Part shown: in pieces, positions 2,955-64,000 of the stretch
How the letters are laid out: each line of letters starts with the position of its first letter
Numbering within the stretch: the first letter of the stretch is position 1
Assembly (NCBI GenBank): GCA_964621395.1
Contig: CAZULS010000001.1
Location: 135,920-199,919, forward strand
Direction: 5' to 3'
DNA from: an uncultured Candidatus Saccharibacteria bacterium
Lineage (GTDB): Bacteria; Patescibacteriota; Minisyncoccia; Phycocordibacterales; JACNGX01
DNA: 64,000 nt
The notes under the pieces: generated by a model
The model's database searches: none
What the model saw: only the letters and a program-made list of their open reading frames with translations
What the model was told of the DNA's origin: nothing
Position numbers and translations under genes: made by a program

Positions 2955-3261
2955 GGCGCTATTATACGTTTTTTGCGTGAAATACGCGAATATTTGACAT
3001 ATTTATACATGCGTGATGTAGTCTTGACTTTTATTGAGGAGCGGTATAGAATGGGGGAGTAAATGTACAGCTTTCGGGCTGTCATTTTCATCAAAGGTCC
3101 CTTGGGCTTTTGCCCTCATATTTTTTGGCAGTAAGTATTTTAGGCTTACTTTATGGAAGATAATGTAATGAATCCGGTAGATGATCAGCAGAATGATGCT
3201 GCTCAGCCGGCAGAAGGAGAAACTCCTGAAGCTACTGAAGAGTCAGCTGAATAGTCTCCTC

Positions 3262-3298
3262 ACACAACCCGCCTCTGGCGGGTTGTGTGTTTTTTTGG
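3262..3298 (+). terminator. Rho-independent terminator CACACAACCCGCC-TCTG-GCGGGTTGTGTG + T7
   Basis: Perfect 13-bp stem followed by a T-run, immediately after a 33-aa acidic mini-ORF (3153..3254). Confidence 0.6.
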
Positions 3299-3451
3299 TA
3301 GGATAGTGCAACAAACGATAAACCCTAGAGCACGCAAGTGTGCTCGGGCGAAGCGATAAACGCGGCGGATGTCGCAAAGCGACATCCTCCGCGATGATAA
3401 ACTTTCTCTTCGTTGTCATTCCCGGCTTGAATGGGAATCCAAAGCCCTAAT

Positions 3452-3550
3452 CCAGCCCCACACTGATGTGTTTCAGGATAAAATAAACTGATCAGTAGAG
3501 ATACTACCGGATACAGAATTATGTCTCTGGACACATAAGTGTGGGGCTGG
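3452..3550. repeat. Family-E MITE-like element (TIR CCAGCCCCACAC ... GTGTGGGGCTGG), with a family-A GTCATTCC hairpin at 3414-3445
   Basis: Inverted termini read directly; related TIR-bounded copies at 16063-16168, 34975-35095, 49845-49965. Confidence 0.55.
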
Positions 3551-3591
3551 ACGGGCATGTCCTAAACCAGGCGTAGCCTGGTCGGACAAGA

Positions 3592-3662
3592 GCGGGTATA
3601 GTTTAGTGGTAGAATATCTGCCTTCCAAGCAGAGGACGGGAGTTCGATTCTCCCTACCCGCA
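3592..3662 (+). tRNA. tRNA-Gly (anticodon UCC)
   Basis: GCGGGTA acceptor stem pairs with TACCCGC; D-loop AGTTTAGTGGTAGAA; anticodon stem TCTGC/GCAGA with loop CTTCCAA giving anticodon TCC; T-arm GGGAGTTCGATTCTCCC; discriminator A; no encoded CCA. Confidence 0.9.
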
Positions 3663-4308
3663 CAGCCAAAGCGAACCGCCATGAAGGGGCGGTTTTCGCT
3701 TTGAGCTGTGCGGGTAGAATGCCACACCTCATACGCATATGGAGTTTTTGGAAGTATGGAATAATGCAAGAAAGTAAAGATGTGTGGGGACAATATCTCT
3801 TGTGAGGTGTGGCATGTGGAGAATCGAACCAAACACAACTTTCACTGATTATTTTGATTGGTTAATTAAATGTTAGAGATTTTTCTTAACGAGAAGTAGC
3901 TATTTTCGGTTATAAGTGAAAGTGGTGTTCGGCGCCCAAGAGTACTTAGCGGATTGCGAATACTTGGAGCAATACGCTTAGTAACTCTGGGACGATTCTC
4001 CCTACCCGCACCACTTCGCCGAGCACCACTTCCGAAAGGAAGTGGTGCTCGGCTTCGCGGCGTCCGTCCTGCATAGCTTTAGCGACGTAGGGCAAGCACC
4101 ACCAACAGCGTGTATATCATATAATCGCGAAGTGGCCCTGCAGAGCCTCGGCGACGTGGGGCATGTAAGACTGTGAGCCGCGCCTGCCTGCCGGCAGGCA
4201 GGTCCAGCAGCACTTTATAAAATACGAGCTCTCAGGCGAAGTATTTTACTTAGTAACTCTGGGACGATTCTCCCAAAATAAAAGCCGGCTTCTGCCGGCT
4301 TCTGCCCT

Positions 4309-4686
4309 CTATTTTCTGGGAGCAGGTATAGGGTACAAGGCTGCTAATTCGGGAGAAAATTGTGCTGACGAGACTGCCACCCAACCCCCCTCTTCAATAA
4401 TGAATCCAAGGATAGGTTTCGTATCGCCTTCTTTTCTGAATATTCCCACAGCCAAGTCACCGTCTCTCACATCTCCGCCTTGCCAGGCTCGTGTGAAGAA
4501 ACCCTCGAATTCTTTTTCGTAACCAAGCTCACATACTTTTTCCCATATAGACACGGCATGCCATCCGTGTATGTGGTAAGCTTCTGAGGGATTATTCAAA
4601 TCTCGGATAAATTTAACCCCTAAATGTGCGATGGCTAACATTTTTACTATCCTCCTAGATTGATTTTGTGTTTTATTATCCATCAT
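4309..4686 (-). CDS. Hypothetical protein (accessory islet next to tRNA-Gly)
   Basis: 125-aa ORF with no recognisable motif; start may be internal (MLAIAHLG). Confidence 0.3.
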   Translation of the reverse strand: MMDNKTQNQSRRIVKMLAIAHLGVKFIRDLNNPSEAYHIHGWHAVSIWEKVCELGYEKEFEGFFTRAWQGGDVRDGDLAVGIFRKEGDTKPILGFIIEEGGWVAVSSAQFSPELAALYPIPAPRK

Positions 4687-6034: not shown

Positions 6035-6742
6035 ATGACCAAGAACACACATAAAGAATTGATGTCCACTATCAAATCGTTGCGGACCGAGAAAGGATTC
6101 TCGCAGGAGCAGACAGCTTCTGCTATCGGCGTTTCGCGCCCGACCTATACAGCCATTGAAGCAGGTAAGCAAAAACTTGATGTTGAAGAGGCGAAAAAGC
6201 TCGCGGTGTTTTTAGGTATTGATGTTGAAGATATCGTGTATGAAGATGTGTCGAATTTGGAAAAGTATAAACACATGATTCTTGCATATCTTCGCGCAAA
6301 GGTGTCGGACGATGGAAAGGTGACAAAGACGAAACTTGCCAAACTCTTGTATCTGGCTGATTTTGCGTGGTATTACGATCACATGAAAAGTATGAGTGGT
6401 ATGCGATATCGTCGTTTACAGTATGGTCCGGTACCAGACATGTTTTTTCGCGCACTCGCGGAGCTTGAAGACAGTGGGAAGATTGTTGTGGAACGGAAAG
6501 ATATGGAGGAAAGAGAAATGTTTCTTATTAGCGAATCTGAGAGCAACAAGAACGATCCTCTTGAGAAGGTGGGAACTGATGAGGTTTCCCTTATTAAGAG
6601 CATCGCAAAAAAGTGGAAAGATAAAAAAACGCAAGATATTGTGACTTTCACACATAATCAATTGCCATATCGGATTTGTCGTGATAATGAGATTATCCCT
6701 TATGAGCTCATCACACAGGAGGATTCCGACCTGGTGTATTAG
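6035..6742 (+). CDS. Antitoxin candidate: N-terminal XRE-family HTH + C-terminal Panacea (DUF4065/SocA-like) domain
   Basis: HTH: LRTEKGFSQEQTASAIGVSRPTYTAIEAGKQKL. Panacea-like core: TKLAKLLYLADFAWYYDHMKSMSGMRYRRLQYGPVPDMFFRAL (KLLYLAD ... Y.YGPV pattern). Downstream ORF starts 4 nt after its stop. Confidence 0.55.
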   Translation: MTKNTHKELMSTIKSLRTEKGFSQEQTASAIGVSRPTYTAIEAGKQKLDVEEAKKLAVFLGIDVEDIVYEDVSNLEKYKHMILAYLRAKVSDDGKVTKTKLAKLLYLADFAWYYDHMKSMSGMRYRRLQYGPVPDMFFRALAELEDSGKIVVERKDMEEREMFLISESESNKNDPLEKVGTDEVSLIKSIAKKWKDKKTQDIVTFTHNQLPYRICRDNEIIPYELITQEDSDLVY

Positions 6743-12233: not shown

Positions 12234-12272
12234 TGATAAACAGAAAACGATAAACGATAAACTAAACTAACA

Positions 12273-12779: not shown

Positions 12780-13928
12780 TTATTTCATCCCTTCCAAAAA
12801 GATAAAGACTGCATCGTTGGTGAGAATGGTTTCCACGTATACGCGCACGTTATCTTCTCCTGCATCTTTGTATTGTTCAAGAAGCGCTTTTGTTTCTTCC
12901 TCCAGGCGTTTTGCATCAGGTTGGATGTTTTCCGTGACGGCAATTTTGTTCAATACAAGCTGTGTCTTTGCGCGCTTTTCAGCGTCGGGGCGCCATTCTT
13001 TTCGCAAATCTTCACGCTCTTTTTTGATGTGCTTGAGGTATTCATCAAATTTGAGCCCCATGCGCGCGATATCGCTCTCAAATTGTGCCATCATGCGATC
13101 GAGTTCACCCTCAATCATCACTCCGGGAACCGACACCTTCGTTCCTTCGAGGATTGCATCCATAATAAGGCCACGATGTTTCTGTGCTTCACGGTGTGTT
13201 TTCTCGTGAAGCATATTGTCTTTGAGTTGTTTTTTGAAATCGTTCACATCTTTGAAATTACCCAAACCTTTGGCAATCTCATCAGTGAGCTCGATAGGGG
13301 TATTATCTTTCTTGGCCGACCGAGCGCCACTTTTATCTTCTTTTGAAAGAGGTGCTCGGTTTAGGCTCTTTTCTTCCTCATTCTTTTCACTTTCCTCGGA
13401 AGGAGATGTCTCAGCATCAGCCATGTCGGCCTCGGCAGCTCGTTGCTTCAAAATTTGCTGAATCGTCTCTTCTACTTCCGCATCGGAAACGCTTACCTTC
13501 TCTTTCTTTTCATTTGCTTCTTTGGCAGCTTTTTTATAATCAGGAAGAACAACCTCAGGCATCACCGCTACAGTAACAGAAAAACCGAGAGGGGAGCCGG
13601 CACCGATTTTGGTAATGGAAATTTCCGGACGGCCAATAATCTGAATGTCTTTGGCAAGAATAAGCTGCGGATAATGCGCCGCGATGGTGTCGCGAGCCAT
13701 CTCTTCCAAGATGCCCATATCGCCAATATGCTTTTTGAGCACATCTTCCGGCACATGACCCTTGCGAAAGCCATCAATGGATACGTGTTCGGAAAGCTTT
13801 TTCACGACACGTGCACGATGTTTTTCCATTTCATCAAAGGGAAGCTCGCCGAGAATGGTAACGGTGGAATCATCATTTTTGGTGACGGTAAATCCGTCGT
13901 AGAGTGTGTTTGTGTTTGTTTCTGACAT
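12780..13928 (-). CDS. tig: Trigger factor lacking the PPIase domain; carries an in-frame 57-bp palindromic insertion
   Basis: N-terminal ribosome-binding domain with GFRKGHVP signature and a C-terminal chaperone arm. The FKBP/PPIase module is replaced by an approx 44-aa acidic low-complexity linker that contains the palindromic element (13311-13367, encodes SLNRAPLSKEDKSGARSAK). Confidence 0.85.
   Translation of the reverse strand: MSETNTNTLYDGFTVTKNDDSTVTILGELPFDEMEKHRARVVKKLSEHVSIDGFRKGHVPEDVLKKHIGDMGILEEMARDTIAAHYPQLILAKDIQIIGRPEISITKIGAGSPLGFSVTVAVMPEVVLPDYKKAAKEANEKKEKVSVSDAEVEETIQQILKQRAAEADMADAETSPSEESEKNEEEKSLNRAPLSKEDKSGARSAKKDNTPIELTDEIAKGLGNFKDVNDFKKQLKDNMLHEKTHREAQKHRGLIMDAILEGTKVSVPGVMIEGELDRMMAQFESDIARMGLKFDEYLKHIKKEREDLRKEWRPDAEKRAKTQLVLNKIAVTENIQPDAKRLEEETKALLEQYKDAGEDNVRVYVETILTNDAVFIFLEGMK
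13311..13367 (-). repeat. 57-bp palindromic element in-frame inside tig (sense: AGCCTAAACCGAGCACC...GGCGCTCGGTCGGCCAAG)
   Basis: Same conserved termini (AGCCTAAAYCGAGC ... GCTCGRTCGGCCRAG) and identical length (57 bp = 19 codons) as the copy inside nusA; related shorter copies sit at recJ and rplE 3' ends. Confidence 0.7.
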
Positions 13929-22080: not shown

Positions 22081-23583
22081 TTACTGCTCTTTCTTCTCGT
22101 TGTCTTCGTCAGATTTTTCCTCATTAAGTTCTTCTTCCTCCGCGACAGCGTCTTCCACGTCTTCCGGTGATGTGCCTTCGGTGTCGTCGATGCTTTGTTC
22201 GCTTTCTTCGTCGTGCGCACCTTCCTCCTCTTCAGAGCCCATTTCTTCCACCGCTTCCTCAGAAACTGTTTCTTCGTTATCATTCATTGCGCTTTCGAGC
22301 GCGTCTTCAAGATTATGCTCTACCACCTCATCCTTGACCGATTGCGCTTCGGCGGAGTCTAGGTCGGCTTGCATTTCGTCGAGTACCTCATCTTCCGTGG
22401 TGCCGTCTTCGCCTTCGATATCGATATTCCATCCGGTGAGTTTCACTGCGAGACGCGCATTTTGTCCTCCCTTCCCGATAGCGAGTGAAAGCTGATCGGA
22501 CGGGACAATCACCTTTGCGTATTTACTCTCTTCATCCACTTCCGTATCAATCACCTTTGCGGGAGAGAGTGCGGCAGCAACAAATTCTGCAGGATTCTCG
22601 CTCCAAAGAATGATGTCGATTTTTTCTCCGGCGAGTTCGTTCATAATGGTGGACACACGCACACCGCGCTGACCGACACATGCGCCAATCGGATCGACCG
22701 AATCGTCTACCGAGTGCACGGCAATCTTCGAGCGATTGCCCGGTTCGCGCGCAATGGATTTAATTTCCACGGTTTCATTTGCCACTTCCGGTGCTTCCAC
22801 GGCAAAGAGTTCGCGAAGGAGTTCCGGATGGGTGCGCGACAGGCGAATGGAAACACCGCGCGGTGTTTCCATCACATCGTAGATATATGCCTTGATACGT
22901 GCACCCTGACGATAATGCTCGCCCGGGATTTGTTCTTCATACGGCATGATACCGGTTGCACGTGCAAGATCCACAAAGACATTGCCGCGCTCCACACGCT
23001 GCACGATACCGGAGACAACCTCGCCTTTGCGATCTGCGTATTCGTCTAAGACAGACTCTTTCTCCGCCTCGCGGATTTTCTGAATAATCACTTGCTTTGC
23101 TGTTTGGGCGGCGATGCGTCCATAGTCTTCTTTCGCTTCAAGCGGGAAGATCATCTCATCATCAAGAGACACGCCTTTCTTAATGCGTTGCGCGTCTTCA
23201 ATCATGATGTGGCGTTCCGGATTAAAGAGAGGGAGCACTTCTTCTTCGTCCTCGGCCGATCGAGCATCGCTTTCGCCCGCAGGCGAAAGCGATGCTCGAT
23301 TTAGGCTTCGCTTATCATTTTCCGGTACGGGAATTTCATCCTCATCCTCTTCAGACGGCATGCGCACGGTGGATTCGTCCACAACGATTTTCACCTGCTC
23401 AAAAGACACGCTGCCCGTTTCCGGATCAAACGCGGCGCGCACGATTTGGTCTTTTTTGCCGTAGTCTTTTTTGTATGCAGCGGCAACAGCCTGTTCAATG
23501 GCTTCCATGATTTTCTCGCGCGAAATCCCGCGCTCTTCTTCGAGCTGCGACAACGCGGAGTTGAATACTTTGATGTCAAACAT
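22081..23583 (-). CDS. nusA: Transcription termination/antitermination factor NusA with acidic C-terminal tail and an in-frame 57-bp palindromic insertion in the N-terminal domain
   Basis: 500 aa from MFDIKVFNSALSQLEEERGIS; S1 domain and two KH domains (GACVGQRGVRV, IGKGGQNARLA); approx 48 extra residues in the NTD relative to E. coli, containing the palindromic element (23251-23307, encodes SLNRASLSPAGESDARSAE). The track ORF start is over-extended. Confidence 0.9.
   Translation of the reverse strand: MFDIKVFNSALSQLEEERGISREKIMEAIEQAVAAAYKKDYGKKDQIVRAAFDPETGSVSFEQVKIVVDESTVRMPSEEDEDEIPVPENDKRSLNRASLSPAGESDARSAEDEEEVLPLFNPERHIMIEDAQRIKKGVSLDDEMIFPLEAKEDYGRIAAQTAKQVIIQKIREAEKESVLDEYADRKGEVVSGIVQRVERGNVFVDLARATGIMPYEEQIPGEHYRQGARIKAYIYDVMETPRGVSIRLSRTHPELLRELFAVEAPEVANETVEIKSIAREPGNRSKIAVHSVDDSVDPIGACVGQRGVRVSTIMNELAGEKIDIILWSENPAEFVAAALSPAKVIDTEVDEESKYAKVIVPSDQLSLAIGKGGQNARLAVKLTGWNIDIEGEDGTTEDEVLDEMQADLDSAEAQSVKDEVVEHNLEDALESAMNDNEETVSEEAVEEMGSEEEEGAHDEESEQSIDDTEGTSPEDVEDAVAEEEELNEEKSDEDNEKKEQ
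23251..23307 (-). repeat. 57-bp palindromic element in-frame inside nusA (sense: AGCCTAAATCGAGCATCGCTTTCGCCTGCGGGCGAAAGCGATGCTCGATCGGCCGAG)
   Basis: 17-bp perfect internal stem; conserved termini shared with the tig copy. Confidence 0.7.
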
Positions 23584-36257: not shown

Positions 36258-36706
36258 AAAATAGGATACAAAGTCGGCGCTCCGCGCCGACTTTGTGTAT
36301 AAAAAAGGCCCCGCGTAACGGGGCTATTGAAGAAAGTATCCTACACTAATAGCGAGTATCGTTAATGCACTCATGACGAGCGTGAATACTTTTGTTGTCA
36401 TCCGCTTACGTTCCTGGGAAGAAAAGTGTGGCAAGAAATCCCAGAGTTCTTTCCGGTAATTATGATAATGAGACATCGGAAAAATATTTTAGGTGTTGAG
36501 AAAAGGACGAGTATTGTTTTTAATCATATCCTTATGAAAAGAAAAGTCAAAATGGGGATAAATAGAAACGATAAACTTTGAACGACCATAAAGCACAACA
36601 AGTTGTGTTCGGGCACAGTAAACGATAAATAAAAATACAAAAGCGCGGCTTCGCCGCGCTTTTGCTATGAAAAATTAATTATATAATTAATTACATAATT
36701 AACCTT

Positions 36707-37298: not shown

Positions 37299-39035
37299 AT
37301 GCCTCAAAAGACTTATCGTATGGCTGATGTGCCCGGTAATGATGCGCGGGAAGCGCTCAGCGCATATTCGCCTCTTGTGCAGACACTTCTTGTGCGTCGC
37401 GGTATTTTCACCGCTGAAGATGCTGAGCACTTTCTTTTTCCCGATTGGGAACGCGACACATCCGACCCATTCCTCCTCACTGATATGGAAAAAGCGGTTG
37501 CGCGTACTTTCGCTGCAATGGATGCTGGTGAGCACATTGTGATTTACGGCGACTATGATGCCGATGGCATTCCGGCAAGTGTTATCCTTCACGATCTCTT
37601 CGTGAAAATACAGTATCCGCATTTCTCCAATTACATGCCTCATCGACACAATGAAGGGTTTGGACTTAATACCGAGGCGATTGAAGAGTTTGGAAGTCGC
37701 CAAGTGAAACTCATCATCACCGTTGATTGCGGTATTACCGACAATGCACACATCGCCCGCGCCAAAGAGCTCGGCATGGATGTGATTGTTACCGATCATC
37801 ACCTTCCTGGAGAAACACTTCCCGATGCGTGTGCTGTGATTGACCCCAAGAGAGAAGACGACATGTATCCCGATGACATGCTGTGCGGTGCCGGTCTTGC
37901 TTTCAAGCTTGCCCACGCACTTCTCATGCGCGGACGAGAGAGTGGTCGCTTTGATGTCCCGGAGGAATGGGAAAAGTGGCTTCTTGATATGGCGGGTGTG
38001 GCAACGATTGCCGATATGGTACCGCTTGTGAAAGAAAATCGCGCCCTTGCACACTTTGGATTGAAGGTGATTCGGAAGGGTGTGCGCCCGGGTATTCGTG
38101 CGCTGTGTAAGGTCGCGAAGTGTGCGTATGAAACGATAGATGAGGGAGATGTGGGTTTTACCATCGGTCCGCGTATTAATGCCGCAAGCAGAATGGATCA
38201 TCCCGATGTGGCATTTCGGCTTCTTTCCGCTATCAATCGCAGCGACGCGGAAGAAGCAGCTGCGTATCTGGAGAGTTTAAATAATGAACGAAAGACACTT
38301 GTCGCCGTAATGATGCGACAGGCACATAAAAAAATTGATGCCGAGGCACTTCCTAATGTGATTGTGCTCGGGGATCCTTCGTGGCGTGTGGGTGTGCTCG
38401 GCATTGCTGCCAATAAACTCATGGAAGAATATGGCCGACCGGTTTTTCTTTGGGGGCGTGAAGGCGCGGAAAAGATTCGCGGCTCGGCGCGCTCCGACGG
38501 CAGCGTGGATGTCACGGAGCTCATGCGCGCACTTCCCGAAGGAGTATTACCGGAAGCAGGCGGACATGCCGAGGCGGGCGGATTTGAAGTGTCATTTGAT
38601 GCGGTGCACACCTTGGGTGAAGAGCTCAATAAAGCATACGGAGAGGTGCGCCGCGATATCCTCGAAGAGGAAGCGGTGATTGATGCCGTGCTTTCCTTAG
38701 ACGACGTCAATGAGCGAACGTTTCATGATATGAATCAGCTCGCACCCTTTGGCATGGGAAATCCCAAGCCCCTCTTTTGGTTTCGTGACGTGACGATTTC
38801 TGACGTGTCCGTCTTTGGCAAAGGCAAAGAGCATCTCAAGCTGACGTTTCACAATGCGCGCGGTGGTGCAATAGAGGCGATTGCCTTTTTCACGCTCCCC
38901 GATGCGTATGGAGAAGAGCTTACTGCCGGCATGACCATCAACATGATTGCCACAATGGAACAATCATTCTTCCGCAGTCGTCCCGAACTCCGCTTGCGGA
39001 TAGAGGATGTAAAAATACAAGAGACAAATGCCTAA
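37299..39035 (+). CDS. recJ: Single-stranded-DNA-specific exonuclease RecJ; C-terminal Ala-stop supplied by palindromic element
   Basis: 578 aa; DHH motifs (IYGDYDADG, TVDCGITD, VTDHH) and DHHA1 domain. The last codons ...AAT GCC TAA are the start of the element GCCTAAAGCACGACGAATCGTGCTCGGCCACGG (39030-39062). Confidence 0.9.
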   Translation: MPQKTYRMADVPGNDAREALSAYSPLVQTLLVRRGIFTAEDAEHFLFPDWERDTSDPFLLTDMEKAVARTFAAMDAGEHIVIYGDYDADGIPASVILHDLFVKIQYPHFSNYMPHRHNEGFGLNTEAIEEFGSRQVKLIITVDCGITDNAHIARAKELGMDVIVTDHHLPGETLPDACAVIDPKREDDMYPDDMLCGAGLAFKLAHALLMRGRESGRFDVPEEWEKWLLDMAGVATIADMVPLVKENRALAHFGLKVIRKGVRPGIRALCKVAKCAYETIDEGDVGFTIGPRINAASRMDHPDVAFRLLSAINRSDAEEAAAYLESLNNERKTLVAVMMRQAHKKIDAEALPNVIVLGDPSWRVGVLGIAANKLMEEYGRPVFLWGREGAEKIRGSARSDGSVDVTELMRALPEGVLPEAGGHAEAGGFEVSFDAVHTLGEELNKAYGEVRRDILEEEAVIDAVLSLDDVNERTFHDMNQLAPFGMGNPKPLFWFRDVTISDVSVFGKGKEHLKLTFHNARGGAIEAIAFFTLPDAYGEELTAGMTINMIATMEQSFFRSRPELRLRIEDVKIQETNA

Positions 39036-39062
39036 AGCACGACGAATCGTGCTCGGCCACGG
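39030..39062 (+). repeat. 33-bp palindromic element GCCTAAAGCAC-GACGAAT-CGTGCTCGGCCACGG overlapping the recJ stop codon
   Basis: Same termini as the in-frame copies in tig and nusA; twin copy at the rplE stop (63451-63483). Confidence 0.7.
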
Positions 39063-39369: not shown

Positions 39370-39849
39370 ATGAAGAATGAACAAAAAGATCTCAGAGGTC
39401 AATTTCAAGAGCTTTGTGAGAGCGCGTGTCGCGGAAGAGTATATCCACCTCATTTAGCGGGGTGGTATGCGTTGCGATGGGCCGCACAGTACCGTCTCGG
39501 ATATGGATATCGTGATGAAGCACGCGAAATCCTTTCTCTGCTTATTCGTATATTTAAAAAGGGTCGGGAAAAGATTGATCCTGAATTCCGAGATTCGTTC
39601 ACGAAGGAATCGCCTTTTGAAGTAATAACAGCAGAGATAAATTGCATGGAAAGAATTGAAGGGGCAATTAAATCAGGGTGCTGTGATGCTTGGATACTTT
39701 CTATTTTTCACGAATGGTATCTTGCACGGATAAGACCGTATCTTTCCTTTGAATTTAAGGAAGAACTCACTGCTCCAATCGTGAAACAGTGGAGATTGGG
39801 ACAGGAAGGAAACGCCCTTTTGCCATTTTTGGCATATGCATCGTCGTAA
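39370..39849 (+). CDS. Hypothetical protein
   Basis: 159-aa ORF; Cys/His-containing; no family recognised. Confidence 0.3.
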   Translation: MKNEQKDLRGQFQELCESACRGRVYPPHLAGWYALRWAAQYRLGYGYRDEAREILSLLIRIFKKGREKIDPEFRDSFTKESPFEVITAEINCMERIEGAIKSGCCDAWILSIFHEWYLARIRPYLSFEFKEELTAPIVKQWRLGQEGNALLPFLAYASS

Positions 39850-39939
39850 GGCGGTGCTTTTTATACTTATTTCATATTTCGTTTTTTCTTTGGCCGAGCA
39901 TGATGTATCATGCTGTAGGCATAATTCGTATCATGCGGT

Positions 39940-45935: not shown

Positions 45936-46406
45936 ATGCGTCATCCGATCAAAAAACGTCCAGAACCGCAGCCTGATTACCGCTACAATTCGGTAAAGGT
46001 AACGAAGTTCATCAATATGCTTATGCGGGGCGGAAAGAAGAGCGTGGCTGAGCGCGTGGTATACGATGCCTTTGATTCCATCAAAAAGCGCGATGAGAAT
46101 GCAAATCCGCTTGAAGTCTTTGAAGCAGCGATTAAGAATGTCGGCCCTTCCATGGAAGTGCGCTCACGTCGTGTGGGTGGTGCCAATTATCAGGTGCCGC
46201 GTCCGGTACAGCCGAATCGTCGCTTGGCTCTGACATTCCGTTGGATTCTCGAAATTGCCCGTAAGAAAAGTGGTAAAGCGATGTCTGAGCGTTTGGCAGA
46301 CGAACTCCTTGCGGCAGCGAAAGGCGAAGGCGATGCAATCGCAAAACGCGACAACATGCACAAGATGGCAGAAGCTAATAAGGCATTTGCTCACTTTGCA
46401 AACTAA
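45936..46406 (+). CDS. rpsG: 30S ribosomal protein uS7
   Basis: [39 protein letters not shown] ...; start moved to MRHP. Confidence 0.95.
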
Positions 46407-46433
46407 CGATAAACGATAAACTCATAAACGATA

Positions 46434-46466
46434 AAAAAGCGCGGGCTAACGCCCGCGCTTTTTTGT
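46434..46466 (+). terminator. Terminator after rpsG (AAAAAAGCGCGGGC-TAAC-GCCCGCGCTTTTTT), preceded by three ACGATAAAC motifs
   Basis: Read directly; it implies rpsG and fusA are transcriptionally uncoupled here. Confidence 0.6.
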
Positions 46467-49518: not shown

Positions 49519-49619
49519 AAAGAGGAGATTAGGAGATTAAAGATTAAAAAATTAAAAAAACTATAAACGGTAAACGATACACTAAAAGTCGCCCTGACGG
49601 GCGACTTTTAGTTTGCTTA

Positions 49620-53277: not shown

Positions 53278-53448
53278 TTGAGCAGTATTGCTCGGGTTCG
53301 CGCATTCAATTTGCCCAGCGAAGTGAATGCGCTCTACCCGATCAATGCAAGAAGCGGCGACGGCGGCGCGCAAAGCGCCCCGCCGCAACAACGCGAATCA
53401 TGACATGAATAGATATGTCACGAGCCGCATGTTTTTTGTATTGCATAA

Positions 53449-53645
53449 GGGTACGAACTACGAACATATACGAACATACGGAGACAGTGTCTCGCGACAT
53501 AATATAATTATATCGTCATTCCGCACTTGATGCGGAATCTAGGAGACTCTGTATCTGGATTCCTGGTCAAGCCAGGAATGACAGCAAAAGAGAGTTTCCT
53601 GCTGAAAGTCAGATTCGTATGTTCGTACAAATTCGTAGTTCGTAA
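53449..53645. mobile_element. Composite family-B variant enclosing family-A hairpins, between rpsJ and the inserted minus-strand ORF
   Basis: GGGTACGAACTACGAACATATACGAACATACGGAG ... GTCATTCCGCACTTGATGCGGAATC ... CCAGGAATGACA ... GATTCGTATGTTCGTACAAATTCGTAGTTCGTAAC. Confidence 0.6.
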
Positions 53646-53710
53646 CAGTTCATAACACAAAAAAACCGCACAGCGGCATATGACGAATCATATACATGTG
53701 CGGTCGGGTT

Positions 53711-54037
53711 TCAGAGACCTGTCTCCCTTTTTGCTTTTTTGCCCCACGGCCAAAGAAAGCCGTGAAATCCATAAAAGCCAAAGTCCACAAGCGCCGCAAT
53801 GAGTCCAATGGGACCCGAGAAGAGACGAATAAATTCAGATGCTTCCCACCATAAATTATTCTCTTTCTTGACTGTTTCCACGGCTTTTTTCAAACGATTG
53901 TCATTTGGAAAAGAAGAAGTTAAGTCATCAAGAAAAGTTTTTCTTCTTACAGAACTTGCAAAAGAGAATCCTGCTCCCAATACACCACAGGCCAGCCATA
54001 GTAAGAGGAGAAGTATCGAAAACAATGTTATATTCAT
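53711..54037 (-). CDS. Hypothetical small membrane protein inserted antisense between rpsJ and rplC
   Basis: 108-aa ORF; N-terminal TM/signal (ITLFSILLLLLWLACGVLGAGF) and C-terminal hydrophobic segment. Confidence 0.35.
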   Translation of the reverse strand: MNITLFSILLLLLWLACGVLGAGFSFASSVRRKTFLDDLTSSFPNDNRLKKAVETVKKENNLWWEASEFIRLFSGPIGLIAALVDFGFYGFHGFLWPWGKKAKRETGL

Positions 54038-54253
54038 CGGAGTAAATTTTTTGTGTTCAAAAGTTCAAAAAACGCCAAGCTAATTCTAACAGTAATATAT
54101 TTCCTATTTAGAGTCAAACATATTTTTTGTCTCTCATCCCAAATTACCCAATTCCTATTTTCTACCGTGACCGAGCATGACTTGTCATGCTGTAGGCACT
54201 CCTAGTTTCCAATCCACCCAGTTGACTTTTCAAATCAAAAAAGGTAGTATCTG

Positions 54254-54420
54254 GAAACGTATAATTCCGAATTACGAATGCACGCGAATATACGAATGAG
54301 TGAAATAGCGGATGTGCCTTCGAAGTATCCTCGGAACATATATAACAATAAGAAGAGAAATATAAAAATGCACGATATATTGAGTATTCGTATATTCGTA
54401 ATAAATTCGTAATTCGTAAC
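54254..54420. mobile_element. Family-B MITE variant directly upstream of rplC (right TIR ends 3 nt before the ATG)
   Basis: ATTACGAATGCACGCGAATATACGAATGAG ... GTATTCGTATATTCGTAATAAATTCGTAATTCGTAAC. Confidence 0.65.
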
Positions 54421-54423
54421 TTT

Positions 54424-55776: not shown

Positions 55777-56211
55777 ATGAGCATTCTCTCTTCCAAAACA
55801 AAAGAGTCTCAGTCGAAAAAGACGACCGACCAAGGGTCTAAGGCAAAAGCTCCGGCAAAGCCGAAAGCAAAAGCTGCATCAAAGAGTGCGCAGCCCAAGC
55901 CTAAGTCACAGAAAGCTGCGACCGCTCCCAAGAAAGGTGCATATGCACACGTGCTTCTTGCACCGCGTATTACAGAGAAGGCAGCTCTTTCAAGCGAACG
56001 TGGCGCGTATGTCTTTACGGTTGCACCAGAGGCGACAAAGGTTGATGTGAAGAAGGCGTTTTTCCAGGTATACGGTATTCTGCCGAGAAAAATCACCATG
56101 ACCCGCATCCCGAAGAAGAACACGTTCATTCGCGGAAGAAAGGGTACGAAAGGTGGTGGTAAGAAAGCGGTTGTATATCTTCCCGAAGGACAGAAGATTG
56201 AAATTGTGTAA
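55777..56211 (+). CDS. rplW: 50S ribosomal protein uL23 with approx 50-aa K/A-rich N-terminal extension
   Basis: The C-terminal 90 aa match uL23 (LLAPRITEKA ... VDVKKAFFQVYGI ...). Confidence 0.85.
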   Translation: MSILSSKTKESQSKKTTDQGSKAKAPAKPKAKAASKSAQPKPKSQKAATAPKKGAYAHVLLAPRITEKAALSSERGAYVFTVAPEATKVDVKKAFFQVYGILPRKITMTRIPKKNTFIRGRKGTKGGGKKAVVYLPEGQKIEIV

Positions 56212-57168: not shown

Positions 57169-57204
57169 AAAAACGATAAACGATAAACTTTTCAACGATA
57201 AAAC

Positions 57205-57332: not shown

Positions 57333-58436
57333 ATGACCGACGACCCTTCCCCTAGTGCACGCTTCATGTTCGCCCTCTATGGCGGGCTTATTGTTCTTTT
57401 TGGCATTCTCTTCTCTGTTGATACCAACATCGCCCTTGTTGCACTTCTCGTGCTGTTTTCGGGACTTTTTTCCGGTCTTACCATTGGTATTCTCGGGCTT
57501 TCTCCCGAAGATCTCAAAATTGAAGCCGATTTGGGCTCGCGCTTGGCAAAGAAGATTCTTCCGGTGCGGCAGAAGGGGAATCTCATTCTCTCCACATTGC
57601 TCGTCTCCAATGTTATCGTCAACTCCGTTCTCTCTATTTTTCTTTCCGACGTCGCTTCAGGTGTTATCGGCGGTATTATCGCCATTGCGCTCATTACCGT
57701 CTTCGGTGAAATTTTGCCGCAATCAATCGCAATCAAGCATGGTCTTAAAATGGGATATATGTCGCTGCCGCTTTTGTATGTGGTGATGACCGTGCTGTAT
57801 CCGATTACTCGCCCTGTGGCATGGGCGCTCGACAAAGCAATCGGTAAGGAATTGCCGGCAATCTATTCCAAGCGCAAACTCTCAAAGATTCTTGAGCACG
57901 TGGAGGACCAGGGAATTATCGATGAAGATGAAGAACAGATTCTTCTCGGCGGCGTGTCGTTTTCGGAGAAATATGTTGGCGATGTAATGACACCAATCGA
58001 CAAGGTCTTTCTCTTGCCCGACACCACACTTCTTTCGGGAGAAAAACTTCGGGAAATATATGAAAGCGGACACTCACGTATCCCTATCTACGATGAAAAT
58101 ATTCACGATATTGTCGGTATGTTGTATGTGAAGAAGCTTATTGCCATTAATCCCGACGACAATACACCGGTTGTAGATGTGATGAGTGACGATGTGCCCA
58201 AGGTGATGGCGAGCGAGCATCTCGATGCGGTTTTGAATAAGTTTAAGCTCAAAAAGAAGCACCTGTTTGCGGTGTATGCCACCGATTCCGACGCCGCCGG
58301 CATCATCACGCTCGAAGACATTATGGAAGAAATCCTCCAAGACGAGATTGTAGACGAGACGGATTTTAAGGAACGAGTTGAGAGTAAAAGAGGGAAGAGT
58401 CGAGAGCGTGGTTATTCGAGTACAGTGAAGAAATAG
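57333..58436 (+). CDS. CNNM/CorC-family transporter (DUF21 transmembrane domain + CBS pair), inserted between rplB and rpsS
   Basis: 367 aa; four N-terminal TM helices (DUF21), then CBS pair (DVMTPIDKVFLL ... IVGMLYVKKL ... AGIITLEDIMEEIL); TAATCTCCTAC motif upstream. Confidence 0.8.
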   Translation: MTDDPSPSARFMFALYGGLIVLFGILFSVDTNIALVALLVLFSGLFSGLTIGILGLSPEDLKIEADLGSRLAKKILPVRQKGNLILSTLLVSNVIVNSVLSIFLSDVASGVIGGIIAIALITVFGEILPQSIAIKHGLKMGYMSLPLLYVVMTVLYPITRPVAWALDKAIGKELPAIYSKRKLSKILEHVEDQGIIDEDEEQILLGGVSFSEKYVGDVMTPIDKVFLLPDTTLLSGEKLREIYESGHSRIPIYDENIHDIVGMLYVKKLIAINPDDNTPVVDVMSDDVPKVMASEHLDAVLNKFKLKKKHLFAVYATDSDAAGIITLEDIMEEILQDEIVDETDFKERVESKRGKSRERGYSSTVKK

Positions 58437-59639: not shown

Positions 59640-60110
59640 ATGGAAGCGTATCTCAAAAATTATCGTCAATCACCTCGAAAAGTGCGTTTGCTCGCTGATT
59701 TGGTGCGTGGAAAGAGCGTAGAACGTGCACTTTCTGAATTGTCGTTTATGCCGAAGCGCGCTGCTGGTCCTATGAAAAAGCTGATTGAGTCGGCTGTGGC
59801 TAATGCAGAGCACAATTTCAATGCGAAAAAGGAGGGTTTTGTCGTGAAGGAAATTACCGTTGATAGCGGTGTAACCTTGAAAAGATGGCGTCCGCGAGCA
59901 TTTGGTCGCGCATCGTCGATTCATAAGCATACAAGCAATGTCTTTGTTCGTCTTGCAGCTGCCGAGTCGGTAAAAGACGAGGATAAAAAGGCAGAGGCTC
60001 CCAAAAAAGCGAAGAAGCCTAAATCACAGCAAGCTGTGACCGGCCAAGAGAGCCTAAACCGTGCAAAAGGCACGGTCGGCCAAAAGGAGGCAGCTGCGGC
60101 AGCAGCGTAA
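59640..60110 (+). CDS. rplV: 50S ribosomal protein uL22 with C-terminal K/A-rich extension
   Basis: MEAYLKNYRQSPRKVRLLADLVRGKSVERAL ... conserved uL22. Confidence 0.9.
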   Translation: MEAYLKNYRQSPRKVRLLADLVRGKSVERALSELSFMPKRAAGPMKKLIESAVANAEHNFNAKKEGFVVKEITVDSGVTLKRWRPRAFGRASSIHKHTSNVFVRLAAAESVKDEDKKAEAPKKAKKPKSQQAVTGQESLNRAKGTVGQKEAAAAAA

Positions 60111-62910: not shown

Positions 62911-63456
62911 ATGGAAACGATTGCAGACAAATTGAAGAGTACACGTGAAGCGCTCGGCGAGCGTTTTGGATACACAAATATGTTTCAGGCACCGCGCCTT
63001 GAGAAGATTGTTGTCTCAACCGGCGTTGGCTCCACTATCGATAAAGAGAAGCTCAAACTCGTACCTGAGCGTTTGGCACTCATTACCGGCCAGAAGCCGT
63101 CGGCACGCGCAGCAAAGAAGTCTATTGCGTCCTTTAAGGTGCGCGAAGGAAGTGTTGTTGGTCATAGTGTTACTCTTCGTGGCGCACGCATGCGCGGTTT
63201 CCTCGAGAAGCTCATTCACGTGGCGCTTCCGCGTACCCGCGACTTCGGTGGTATTTCGCCGAAAGCAATTGATGATATGGGCAACCTCACCATCGGCATC
63301 AAGGAACACACGATTTTCCCGGAAACATCCGATGAAGAATTGAAAAATGTCTTTGGCATGGCTATCACGCTCGTCTCCACGGCGAAAAACAAAGAAGAAG
63401 CACTCGCATTCTTCACCCACCTCGGTGTTCCGTTTAGAAAAGAGGAGAAAGCCTAA
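62911..63456 (+). CDS. rplE: 50S ribosomal protein uL5; terminal Ala-stop supplied by palindromic element
   Basis: 181 aa from METIADKLKSTREALGERFGYTNMFQAPRLEKIVVSTGVG; the track ORF is extended 36 codons upstream. The final codons GCC TAA begin the element GCCTAAAGCACAACAAGTCGTGCTCGGCCACGG. Confidence 0.9.
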   Translation: METIADKLKSTREALGERFGYTNMFQAPRLEKIVVSTGVGSTIDKEKLKLVPERLALITGQKPSARAAKKSIASFKVREGSVVGHSVTLRGARMRGFLEKLIHVALPRTRDFGGISPKAIDDMGNLTIGIKEHTIFPETSDEELKNVFGMAITLVSTAKNKEEALAFFTHLGVPFRKEEKA

Positions 63457-63483
63457 AGCACAACAAGTCGTGCTCGGCCACGG
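63451..63483 (+). repeat. 33-bp palindromic element overlapping the rplE stop; further copy at 63649-63680
   Basis: GCCTAAAGCAC-AACAAGT-CGTGCTCGGCCACGG; CCCAAAGCACAACAAGTCGCGCTCGGCCGCG. Confidence 0.7.
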
Positions 63484-63505
63484 TAAAGATTAGGAGATTA
63501 AACAT

Positions 63506-63538
63506 TAAAAAAGCGCGGGCATACGCCCGCGCTTTTTA
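63506..63538 (+). terminator. Terminator after rplE (AAAAAAGCGCGGGC-ATAC-GCCCGCGCTTTTT)
   Basis: Read directly; near-identical to the rpsG terminator stem. Confidence 0.6.
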
Positions 63539-63808
63539 CACTTTCACATACCGCGTCGCGCGACCGATTTCATAGGGGTAAAAATCGAATATATAACACT
63601 ATACTGTATATAACAGATTATGGTGGATTATAGCGGATAACGCAAGCAGCCCAAAGCACAACAAGTCGCGCTCGGCCGCGATAGAGATTAGGATAAAAAG
63701 AAATCCCGCCGAAGTTAAGCTTTGGCAATTCCGCCAAAGCTTAACTTCGGCGGGACACAACTTCTTCATGCTGTAAAGAATATGGAATATGGAAAAAACG
63801 CAAACCAC

Positions 63809-63886
63809 TGTCATTCCGCACTTGATGCGGAATCTTCATTGTTTTGTTTCTTTTTGTTAAGATTCTGAGTCGAGCTCAGAATGACA
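63809..63886. mobile_element. Family-A hairpin-ended MITE (TGTCATTCCGCACTTGATGCGGAATC ... GATTCTGAGTCGAGCTCAGAATGACA)
   Basis: Read directly. Confidence 0.65.
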
Positions 63887-64000
63887 GTTTTTTGGATCCA
63901 GGATGACGGAAATTTTTATGCTCGCGCTTTTGTATTGCAACAATGAACAATAAATAAACGACCGCTGGAATGCGGTCGTTTTTGGCGAAAAAAGAAAAGA

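What the first reader, a model, noticed from the sequence alone, without database searches (positions are those of the whole stretch)
13311..13367. RPE-like palindromic element family inserted in-frame in tig and nusA and donating stop codons to recJ and rplE
A GC-rich palindrome with conserved termini (sense AGCCTAAAYCGAGC ... GCTCGRTCGGCCRAG) occurs as exactly 57 bp (19 codons) inside the coding sequence of trigger factor (13311-13367) and NusA (23251-23307). In both it is read in the frame that avoids its internal TAA, encoding S-L-N-R-A-(P/S)-L-S ... A-R-S-A within surface linker regions. A 33-bp form of the same element (GCCTAAAGCAC ... GTGCTCGGCCACGG) sits at the 3' ends of recJ (39030-39062) and rplE (63451-63483), where its GCC-TAA supplies the terminal Ala and the stop codon. 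Further copies are intergenic (63649-63680; diverged 3324-3350, 4018-4053). Same length, same termini and a different compensatory hairpin interior argue for a mobile palindromic element that is tolerated in-frame in essential genes, analogous to Rickettsia palindromic elements. I have not seen this described outside a few obligate-symbiont lineages.
Basis: seen in the sequence. Interest (0 to 1): 0.9.

Follow-up and report, generated by a model that had tools for sequence, protein, structure and literature searches.

The report
Short hairpin repeats inside bacterial genes
A tiny-genome bacterium (Patescibacteria) carries about 14 copies of a 30-57-base hairpin repeat in 64 kb, several of them translated in frame inside essential genes; this extends a known type of selfish palindromic DNA (REP/RPE-like) to a phylum where I found no report of it.

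Summary
The unit is GCCTAAA, a variable stem-loop, then TCGGCC(GA/AAG). Strict scanning finds 7 copies against 0.5 expected by chance. A covariance model raises this to about 14 copies in 64 kb.

In-frame copies lie in tig, nusA (two sites), rplV (two tandem copies) and rplW. Copies at or near stop codons lie at recJ and rplE. The rest sit in 3' UTRs or intergenic DNA, one of them abutting tRNA-Gly.

The tig and nusA inserts are missing or decayed in close relatives. The family is absent from 1.3 Mb of other Paceibacteria DNA.

The rplE stop codon was captured by a 20-bp deletion. In a relative the element lies 10 nt after rplE's own stop.

Related Paceibacteria carry tail-to-tail doublets of the same unit, in frame in murD, gatB, fmt and rluD. 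The gatB doublet shows a clean 57-nt presence/absence difference.

Best reading: a REP/REPIN-like non-autonomous palindromic repeat that survives in frame in disordered protein segments. It lacks the GTAG/CGTC tags of classical REPs, and no transposase was seen. I rate it a new variant of a known kind, of moderate interest.

The parts
13311..13367 (-). Long-form unit (57 nt, imperfect stem of about 14 bp), in frame in the trigger factor linker. Encodes SLNRAPLSKEDKSGARSA.
   Evidence: The copy is absent from the 93%-identical ortholog P0001/L003 and decayed in L001.
23251..23307 (-). Long-form unit (57 nt, perfect 18-19 bp stem), in frame in a loop of the NusA N-terminal domain. Encodes SLNRASLSPAGESDARSA.
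   Evidence: Absent in relatives with 82-86% identical NusA. The loop is predicted disordered, with pLDDT below 50 for residues 82-115.
22331..22368 (-). Decayed in-frame unit in the NusA C-terminal acidic tail (CCTAGACTCCGCCGAAGCGCAATCGGTC, read as DLDSAEAQSVK).
   Evidence: Weak covariance-model hit of 10.9 bits. Relatives carry intact or decayed copies with the same stem in the tail: L109 has ILNSAEAESDE and L001 has SLHSTEAESAE twice.
60016..60048 (+). Short unit in frame in the C-terminal extension of L22 (rplV). Read in the CCT-AAA frame as KPKSQQAVTGQE.
   Evidence: 49.4 bits. The L22 family model ends at residue 104 of 156.
60051..60084 (+). Second tandem short unit in frame in the L22 tail. 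Read in the AGC-CTA-AAC frame as SLNRAKGTVGQK.
   Evidence: 33 bits.
55895..55934 (+). Decayed in-frame unit in the N-terminal extension of L23 (rplW). Same type and frame as the first rplV copy (KPKSQKAATAPKK).
   Evidence: (16.2 bits). The Pfam L23 domain starts at residue 59.
39029..39062 (+). Short unit (B subfamily, stem GCACGA/TCGTGC) overlapping the recJ 3' end. Its GCC-TAA supplies the last Ala codon and the stop.
   Evidence: 53.3 bits.
63450..63483 (+). Short unit (B subfamily) overlapping the rplE 3' end. Its TAA serves as the stop because of a 20-bp deletion.
   Evidence: 54.1 bits.
63648..63680 (+). Intergenic B unit. It is part of a local duplicate of about 46 bp of the rplE copy and its downstream flank, and shares the same stem mismatch.
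   Evidence: 44.7 bits.
39889..39921 (-). Intergenic B2 unit (GCCTACA, stem GCATGAT/ATCATGC) between ORF 39370-39849 and rnhA. It is the only copy antisense to both neighbouring genes.
   Evidence: 46.8 bits.
54163..54201 (-). B2 unit (GCCTACA-GCATGA...TCATGC-TCGGTC) in the insert between rpsJ and rplC. It lies upstream of, and sense to, the - strand ORF 53711-54037.
   Evidence: (43.6 bits; this copy was not in the training set).
36582..36620 (+). Degenerate B unit in the 3' region of pgk, about 20 nt upstream of an intrinsic terminator.
   Evidence: (29.5 bits).
3319..3355 (+). Degenerate B unit (CCCTAGA-GCAC...GTGC-TCGGGC) upstream of tRNA-Gly. Absent from the orthologous spacer in L001.
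   Evidence: (25.1 bits).
3556..3592 (+). A-like unit (TCCTAAA-CCAGGC-GTA-GCCTGG-TCGGAC-AAGA) ending at the first base of tRNA-Gly. Absent in L001, although the tRNA there is identical.
   Evidence: (20 bits).
4018..4053 (.). Perfect 15-16 bp hairpin with a GAAA loop. Its arms are 13/15 identical to those of the tig copy, but the GCCTAAA and TCGGCC termini are missing. Probable diverged long-form relative.
   Evidence: (11 bits only).

Best explanation
**What it is.** This is a family of REP-like, non-autonomous palindromic repeats.
- The unit is 5'-GCC-TAAA-[stem, loop, stem']-T/C-CGGCC-(GA/AAG)-3'.
- As a single strand it folds into a hairpin closed by GCC/GGC. It has a conserved asymmetric internal loop (UAA opposite C).
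- The stem sequence differs between subfamilies but stays complementary.

**How it spreads and persists.**
- Copies have spread within one Paceibacteria lineage. The mechanism is probably a trans-acting enzyme that recognises the folded single strand, as RAYT/Y1 transposases do for REPs. This step is inferred, not shown.
- Most B-subfamily copies sit in sense orientation in transcribed 3' regions, near stop codons or ahead of the terminator; one lies upstream of a small ORF and one is antisense to both neighbours.
- A-subfamily copies landed inside genes of this compact genome. They survived only under three conditions: a length that is a multiple of three, a reading frame that avoids the unit's TAA, and a host segment that is disordered. 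The host segments are the trigger factor linker, the NusA N-terminal-domain loop and acidic tail, and the L22 and L23 extensions.
- There the copies are translated as short hydrophilic peptides. They then decay or are deleted.
- Stop-codon "donation" arises when a small deletion fuses an ORF to a downstream copy.

**Relatives.** Other Paceibacteria carry the same unit as tail-to-tail doublets. The two units share the palindromic tail TCGGCCGA, which gives terminal inverted repeats GCCTAAA...TTTAGGC. These doublets are likewise in frame in conserved enzymes.
For: **Family is real.**
- 7 strict copies against 0.5 expected.
- Covariance-model hits on copies outside the training set have E-values from 1e-8 to 1e-2.
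- Hairpins fold with z-scores from -4 to -6.9.
- Compensatory stem changes: 31 cells against 10.1 +/- 2.5 in shuffles, with slid-partner controls near zero.

**Subfamilies share diagnostic changes.**
- B1 has GCACGA/TCGTGC.
- B2 has GCCTACA with GCATGA/TCATGC.
- The long forms share CGAGCAYC..CTTYC.

**Restricted to one lineage.** No convincing copy in 1.32 Mb from 84 other Paceibacteria loci.

**Presence/absence among close relatives.**
- tig.
- nusA.
- tRNA-Gly leader.
- gatB doublet: exactly 57 nt between genes that are 92% identical.

**Orthologous copies decay without compensation.**
- rplE copy: window against L085.
- tig copy: window against L001.

**In-frame constraint.**
- All 11 independent intragenic copies use stop-free frames.
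- The doublet inserts are 54, 57, 60 and 66 nt long.

**Host segment and known behaviour.**
- The NusA insert lies in a predicted disordered loop.
- The doublet architecture was verified by reverse-complementing the right half.
- Intragenic REP dimers encoding 20-30 aa are known behaviour for such repeats (PMC3733652).
Against: - No transposase or RAYT was found among the 57 window ORFs scanned.
- No clear target-site duplication was found. Empty and filled sites differ by extra substitutions at the junction.
- The units lack the GTAG/CGTC tag of classical REPs.
- Orientation is sense in all 8 intragenic or stop-codon copies. Stop codons do not explain this, because the antisense orientation also has 2 of 3 frames open.
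- The murD doublet is 59/60 identical between species whose flanking gene sequence is only 65-78% identical. A simple neutral old insertion does not predict this.
- The nusA copy is a perfect palindrome, while apparently homologous decayed copies sit at the same site in the distant L005 and L106.
Confidence: 0.7

Rival explanations
1. The unit is a functional RNA (or single-stranded DNA) motif. It would be a protein-binding, mRNA-stabilising or processing hairpin kept by selection in transcripts, rather than merely selfish DNA.
For: - About 12 of 14 copies are sense to local transcription, including all 8 intragenic or stop-codon copies.
- The asymmetric internal loop is conserved and the stems covary.
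- Most B copies sit in transcribed 3' regions near stop codons or ahead of terminators.
- The murD doublet is 98% conserved against about 70% for its flanks.
Against: - Orthologous copies decay or are deleted in close relatives with no compensation.
- Copies sit in unrelated genes and in a tRNA leader.
- There is no Rfam match.
- The second hairpin of the doublets differs completely between sites.
- This reading is not exclusive of the selfish-repeat explanation.
Confidence: 0.17
2. The encoded peptide (S/G-L-N-R-A...) is the selected entity. It would be a short functional linker or tail module spread between proteins.
For: - The same frame (GLNRA..GRT..VLG) is used at 5 of 5 independent doublet sites.
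- The same frame is used in tig, nusA and the second rplV copy.
Against: - At least 7 copies are non-coding.
- A second frame (KPKSQ) is used in rplV and rplW.
- The peptides decay quickly in relatives.
- The NusA insert is predicted disordered.
- A word-indexed search with concatenated peptides returned nothing with E <= 10.
Confidence: 0.04
3. The palindromes arise locally and independently, through template-switch or hairpin-repair mutagenesis in purine-rich linkers, and are not a family related by descent.
For: - Stems differ between copies while remaining perfect.
- The same sites in tig and nusA are hit repeatedly.
Against: - The 7-nt and 6-nt termini and the internal loop are identical across 14 copies, and across different candidate phyla.
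- The subfamily structure also argues for descent.
Confidence: 0.04

Closest known systems
REP / REPIN elements (repetitive extragenic palindromes of Proteobacteria and others, including intragenic REPs; Di Nocera et al. 2013, PMC3733652)
   Same: - Imperfect palindromes of 20-40 nt, interspersed and present in many copies.
- Mostly just downstream of ORFs and transcribed.
- Singletons occur alongside inverted (tail-to-tail) dimers.
- Subfamilies differ by compensated stem changes.
- Some copies lie in frame inside genes and encode 20-30 aa.
   Different: - No GTAG or CGTC terminal tag.
- No associated RAYT seen.
- The host is a Patescibacterium.
- Intragenic and stop-codon copies make up about half of the copies seen in the window.
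- Orientation is strongly biased to the sense strand.
- Doublet units overlap by a shared 8-nt palindromic tail.
Rickettsia palindromic elements (RPE; Ogata et al. 2000, as summarised in PMC10969869)
   Same: - Palindromic repeats inserted in frame in unrelated housekeeping genes of a reduced genome.
- Translated as extra peptide segments.
- Old copies deteriorate.
   Different: - RPEs are about 100-150 bp, whereas these units are 30-57 nt.
- No sequence relationship was tested or is expected.
- Different phylum.
Bacterial MITEs (Correia, ERIC, BOX, QMITE; review PMC10969869)
   Same: - Non-autonomous and hairpin-forming.
- Can create in-frame fusions.
- The doublets have 7-9 bp terminal inverted repeats.
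   Different: - Much shorter than typical MITEs.
- GC-rich rather than AT-rich.
- No clear target-site duplication.
- No parent insertion sequence identified.

Membership tests
REP (GTAG/CGTC-tagged superfamilies) | Short (about 20-40 bp) imperfect palindrome repeated many times in the genome | tested here: met
   Units of 29-35 nt (long form 53-57 nt). About 14 copies in 64 kb.
REP (GTAG/CGTC-tagged superfamilies) | Conserved GTAG or CGTC tetranucleotide at one end (PMC3733652) | tested here: not met
   The termini are GCCTAAA and TCGGCC(GA). Neither strand of the consensus carries GTAG or CGTC (alignments).
REP (GTAG/CGTC-tagged superfamilies) | Association with a RAYT (Y1/HUH transposase) gene flanked by the repeats | not testable with these tools
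   No transposase domain was found in the 57 window ORFs scanned. The rest of the genome was not available.
REP (GTAG/CGTC-tagged superfamilies) | Preferential location downstream of ORFs, transcribed, with singletons plus inverted dimers | tested here: met
   Several B copies lie near stop codons or between stop codon and terminator. Tail-to-tail doublets occur in relatives.
Rickettsia palindromic elements | Palindromic repeat inserted in frame in protein-coding genes | tested here: met
   tig, nusA (two sites), rplV (two copies) and rplW in the window. murD, gatB, fmt and rluD in relatives.
Rickettsia palindromic elements | Element length of about 100-150 bp in the defined RPE-1 to RPE-10 sequence families | tested here: not met
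   Units are 30-57 nt and doublets 54-66 nt. The RPE size is taken from PMC10969869.
MITE | Terminal inverted repeats | tested here: inconclusive
   Doublets have GCCTAAA(A)C and GTTTTAGGC as terminal inverted repeats. The single units in the window have only a 4-of-6 match between their ends.
MITE | Target-site duplication flanking the insertion | tested here: inconclusive
   GGC or TTAGGC-like repeats flank the doublets, and AAG flanks the tig copy. The empty-against-filled comparison for gatB shows extra substitutions at the junction.
Intrinsic terminator | GC-rich hairpin followed by a run of U | tested here: not met
   In the sense strand the hairpin is followed by UCGGCC. Genuine terminators lie 20-25 nt further downstream.
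Any Rfam RNA family | Match to a curated covariance model | tested here: not met
   Only tRNA-Gly reached the gathering score in the window. Nothing credible appeared at the E-value threshold on a doublet.

The most novel reading that the evidence does not exclude
The elements may not be passive junk. They could be a homing-like hairpin element that encodes no enzyme and is coupled to transcription.
- It would insert repeatedly at the same codon of conserved genes in different Paceibacteria. The murD doublet is 98% identical between genes that are only about 70% identical. The tig and nusA sites are hit or renewed repeatedly.
- It would always insert in the sense orientation and in one frame.
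- This would imply either a new insertion mechanism (into the non-template strand, or through an RNA intermediate) or an RNA-level function.
- As a side effect, it would be a major source of new linker and tail peptides in the ribosomal and housekeeping proteins of these bacteria.
Probability: 0.15. Interest if true: 0.8.

Novelty: new variant of a known kind. Interest (0 to 1): 0.5.

Why it matters
Patescibacteria have very small, gene-dense genomes and are usually described as poor in repeats. This window shows a proliferating hairpin repeat that makes up parts of essential proteins: trigger factor, NusA, L22 and L23 here, and MurD, GatB, Fmt and RluD in relatives.

- **Genome interpretation.** It explains some of the lineage-specific insertions and extensions seen in proteins of these bacteria. 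It also gives ready-made markers for strain-level population genetics.
- **Annotation.** It warns annotators that some stop codons and tails come from a repeat.
- **Open mechanism.** The sense-only orientation, and the extreme conservation of one doublet relative to its host gene, make a testable case for an unusual insertion mechanism or an RNA-level role.

The general phenomenon, in-frame REP/RPE-type palindromes, is already known.

Tried and rejected
- **Rfam.** The gathering threshold on the window, and the E-value threshold on 3000-4400 and on a doublet, gave only tRNA-Gly and noise.
- **Integron attC idea.** GCCTAAA resembles the RYYYAAC core of attC sites (from memory). I rejected this because the 3' end is not the complementary GTTRRRY.
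- **Hammerhead or other ribozyme idea for the doublet junction GGCCGAAC.** A 12-bit Hammerhead_II hit with E = 4 is noise.
- **Terminator idea.** There is no U-run after the hairpin, and real terminators lie downstream.
- **"3' extension" of B copies (ACGGTAAAGATTAGGA).** This turned out to be generic 3'-UTR motifs of this genome, namely (AAACGAT)n and GATTAGGAGATTAAA. It is not part of the element.
- **Peptide-based database search.**
  - A concatenated query returned nothing with E <= 10, so the last homology search was wasted.
- **Viral contigs.** No match for either subfamily pattern.
- **Exact-protein look-ups to reach orthologs of the rplV tail and the recJ end in close relatives.** These returned only the window's own organism, or nothing.
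- **Transposase search.** Pfam or NCBIfam scans of 57 window ORFs found none.
- **Target-site duplication.** None could be defined for tig, nusA or gatB.
Full report
**1. The observation**

NCBIfam confirms trigger factor (12780-13928, -), NusA (22081-23583/23730, -), RecJ (37299-39035, +), L5 (62803-63456, +) and L22 (59640-60110, +).

- The tig and nusA elements are each 57 nt, or 19 codons. They are translated as SLNRAPLSKEDKSGARSA and SLNRASLSPAGESDARSA.
- recJ and rplE end in GCC-TAA, which lies within a 33-nt copy.
- The window comes from a Patescibacterium of the class Paceibacteria, near "Yonathbacteria". This follows from the tig and NusA homologs and from named genome contigs.
- Logan assemblies of runs SRR8146440/1 contain pieces 100% identical to the window.

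**2. Anatomy and census**

The unit is A-GCC-TAAA-[stem, loop, stem']-T/C-CGGCC-(GA/AAG).

- As a single strand it folds into a variable stem closed by GCC/GGC, with a conserved asymmetric internal loop. The z-scores are -4 to -6.9.
- A strict scan found 7 copies against 0.5 in shuffles.
- A covariance model built from seven short copies recovered copies that were not in its training set:
  - 54163-54201 (-), 43.6 bits.
  - 36582-36620 (+), 29.5 bits.
  - 3319-3355 (+), 25.1 bits.
  - 3556-3592 (+), 20 bits, ending at the first base of tRNA-Gly.
  - Weak decayed copies in rplW (55895-55934) and in the NusA C-terminal tail (22331-22368).

The total is about 14 copies in 64 kb. Across 17 aligned copies, 96% of stem cells pair. 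There are 31 compensatory cells against 10.1 +/- 2.5 in shuffles, and almost none when the partner columns are slid. The caveat is that this alignment was fitted to the model.

**3. Subfamilies**

| Subfamily | Stem | Where the copies are |
|---|---|---|
| B1 | GCACGA/TCGTGC | recJ, rplE, 63648, 36582, 3319 |
| B2 | GCCTACA with GCATGA/TCATGC | 39889, 54163 |
| A | YCGWGC, CTCCGC, TCACAGC | intragenic copies |
| Long form | sharing CGAGCAYC..CTTYC | tig, nusA, 4018 |

The B copies are all non-coding or lie at stop codons. Shared diagnostic and compensated changes of this kind are what a repeat family related by descent shows.

The copy at 63648 is a local duplicate of about 46 bp of the rplE copy. 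It carries the same stem mismatch.

**4. Comparative evidence**

- **tig.**
  - The 93%-identical ortholog (P0001/L003) lacks the segment. So do P0005 and P0006.
  - P0002, P0003 (L001) and P0004 carry decayed versions at the same place. L001 keeps ...CTCAGTCGGCCAAAG.
  - On a tree built from the rest of the protein, carriers and non-carriers are interleaved. The two most distant empty alleles resemble each other.
  - The history therefore involves repeated gain, loss or allelic exchange. It is not a single event.
- **nusA.**
  - Relatives at 82-86% identity lack the insert.
  - The more distant L005 has a decayed stretch of 48 nt of the same length at the same site. L106 may have one too.
  - The NusA acidic tail carries further copies at two sites in different relatives.
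- **rplE.**
  - In L085 (91-97% identical) the unit lies 10 nt downstream of rplE's own TAA.
  - In the window a 20-bp deletion fuses the ORF to the unit's TAA. The window copy also has an uncompensated G-to-A change in the stem.
- **tRNA-Gly leader.** L001 has an identical tRNA but neither upstream copy.
- **Other Paceibacteria.** 1.32 Mb from 84 other Paceibacteria loci contain no convincing copy.

**5. A wider family**

One metagenome scan for A-type units returned 13 loci.

- Twelve of them, representing five independent sites, carry a two-hairpin element: GCCTAAA-HP1-TCGGCCGA-AC-HP2-GTTTTAGGC.
- Reverse-complementing the right half shows that it is a second unit in inverted orientation. 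The two units share the palindromic tail TCGGCCGA. The element is therefore a tail-to-tail doublet with terminal inverted repeats.
- All five sites lie inside conserved genes, in the same orientation and frame (G-LNRA..GRT...VLG). The genes are rluD, fmt, murD, gatB and one of unknown function.
- The insert lengths are 54, 57, 60 and 66 nt.
- The hosts are Zambryskibacteria, Vogelbacteria and other Paceibacterota.
- A GatB allele (P0230/L113) that is 92% identical at the DNA level lacks exactly 57 nt, or 19 aa. The three codons next to the junction also differ.
- The murD doublet is 59/60 identical between two species whose flanking gene sequence is 65-78% identical.

**6. Interpretation**

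The data fit a REP/REPIN-like selfish palindromic repeat.

- Supporting features are short imperfect palindromes, many copies, subfamilies, singletons and inverted dimers, a preference for transcribed 3' regions, presence/absence among close relatives, and decay of old copies.
- In-frame survival is a filter. All 11 independent intragenic copies use one of the two frames without a stop, and their lengths are multiples of three.
- The NusA insert lies within a loop that AlphaFold2 predicts as disordered (pLDDT below 50 for residues 82-115).
- Intragenic REPs and dimers encoding 20-30 aa are documented (PMC3733652). In-frame MITE or RPE insertions are reviewed in PMC10969869.
- The family fails the GTAG/CGTC tag test.
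- No transposase was found in the window.
- The mobilisation step (recognition of the folded single strand by a trans-acting enzyme) is therefore inference by analogy.

**7. What does not fit neatly**

- **Orientation.** All 8 intragenic or stop-codon copies are sense (two-sided binomial, about 0.008). About 12 of 14 copies are sense to local transcription.
  - The antisense orientation also has two open frames, so stop codons do not explain the bias.
  - One possible reason (inference): in antisense orientation the mRNA would contain a GC hairpin followed by UUUAGG, which resembles a terminator.
- **murD.** The 98% conservation of the murD doublet suggests either recent site-specific insertion or strong constraint.
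- **nusA.** The window's nusA copy is a perfect palindrome at a site that holds decayed copies in distant relatives.

These points keep an RNA-level function, or a homing-like mechanism, open as minority readings.

**8. Literature**

Full-text searches found no paper that combines Patescibacteria/CPR terms with REP, MITE or palindromic-repeat terms. The library is limited to open-access papers and bioRxiv.

**9. Verdict**

The closest mechanistic analogy is REP/REPIN.
- Novelty: a new variant of a known kind. It is an untagged REP-like family in Patescibacteria, with an unusually high share of translated copies and a related doublet form in several candidate phyla.
- Interest: moderate, 0.5.

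Noticed in passing
window 12245-12261, 46404-46435, 49558-49581, 57171-57202, 36566-36575, 36620-36629: Tandem heptads (AAACGAT)n sit between stop codons and intrinsic terminators of several + strand genes (clpP, rpsG, fusA, rplB, pgk). AAACGATAAA with at most 1 mismatch occurs 24 times, against 7.9 expected. This looks like a genome-specific 3'-UTR motif of unknown role.
   Followed up: partly
window 4184-4201; L089 4566-4583; L077 4854-4871: A second, unrelated perfect 18-nt palindrome (CTGCCTGCCGGCAGGCAG) is shared by three different Paceibacteria. In the Vogelbacteria gatB gene it lies within a polymorphic in-frame 21-nt indel (GGDLPAGRQ present or absent among alleles that are at least 97% identical). 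This hints at a second in-frame palindrome family.
   Followed up: partly
window 3985-4013 and 4245-4270 (tRNA-Gly gene at 3592-3663): Two partial copies of the 3' part of tRNA-Gly (...gggacgattctccctacccgcacca) lie downstream of the intact tRNA. They bracket a gene-poor stretch. This looks like att-site remnants of an element that integrated at the tRNA.
   Followed up: no
window 53278-54423 and 57333-58436: The S10 ribosomal-protein operon is interrupted twice. A 1.1-kb insert with a - strand small membrane-like ORF (53711-54037) lies between rpsJ and rplC. A CNNM/CBS-domain gene lies between rplB and rpsS.
   Followed up: no
window 63484-64000: rplE is followed by an intrinsic terminator (63508-63537) and several long hairpins, not by rpsN/rpsH. 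The spc operon therefore appears to be broken here.
   Followed up: no
window 49519-49545 and 63487-63503: The motif GATTAGGAGATTAAA recurs just after the fusA and rplE stop regions. It looks like a Shine-Dalgarno sequence, but no ORF follows it.
   Followed up: no
window 12780-13928: The trigger factor has only the N- and C-terminal Pfam domains (precomputed for all close homologs). An acidic low-complexity linker stands where the PPIase domain is in E. coli. The element sits in that linker.
   Followed up: partly
window 6035-6742: An HTH plus SocA/Panacea-domain protein (antitoxin-like) lies next to small ORFs with no known domain. This may be a toxin-antitoxin module.
   Followed up: no
L113 against L089 (gatB junction): The three codons upstream of the 57-nt doublet differ (DST against NEV) between the empty and filled alleles. 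The rest of the gene differs almost only at synonymous sites. This local burst of change at the insertion junction is unexplained.
   Followed up: partly
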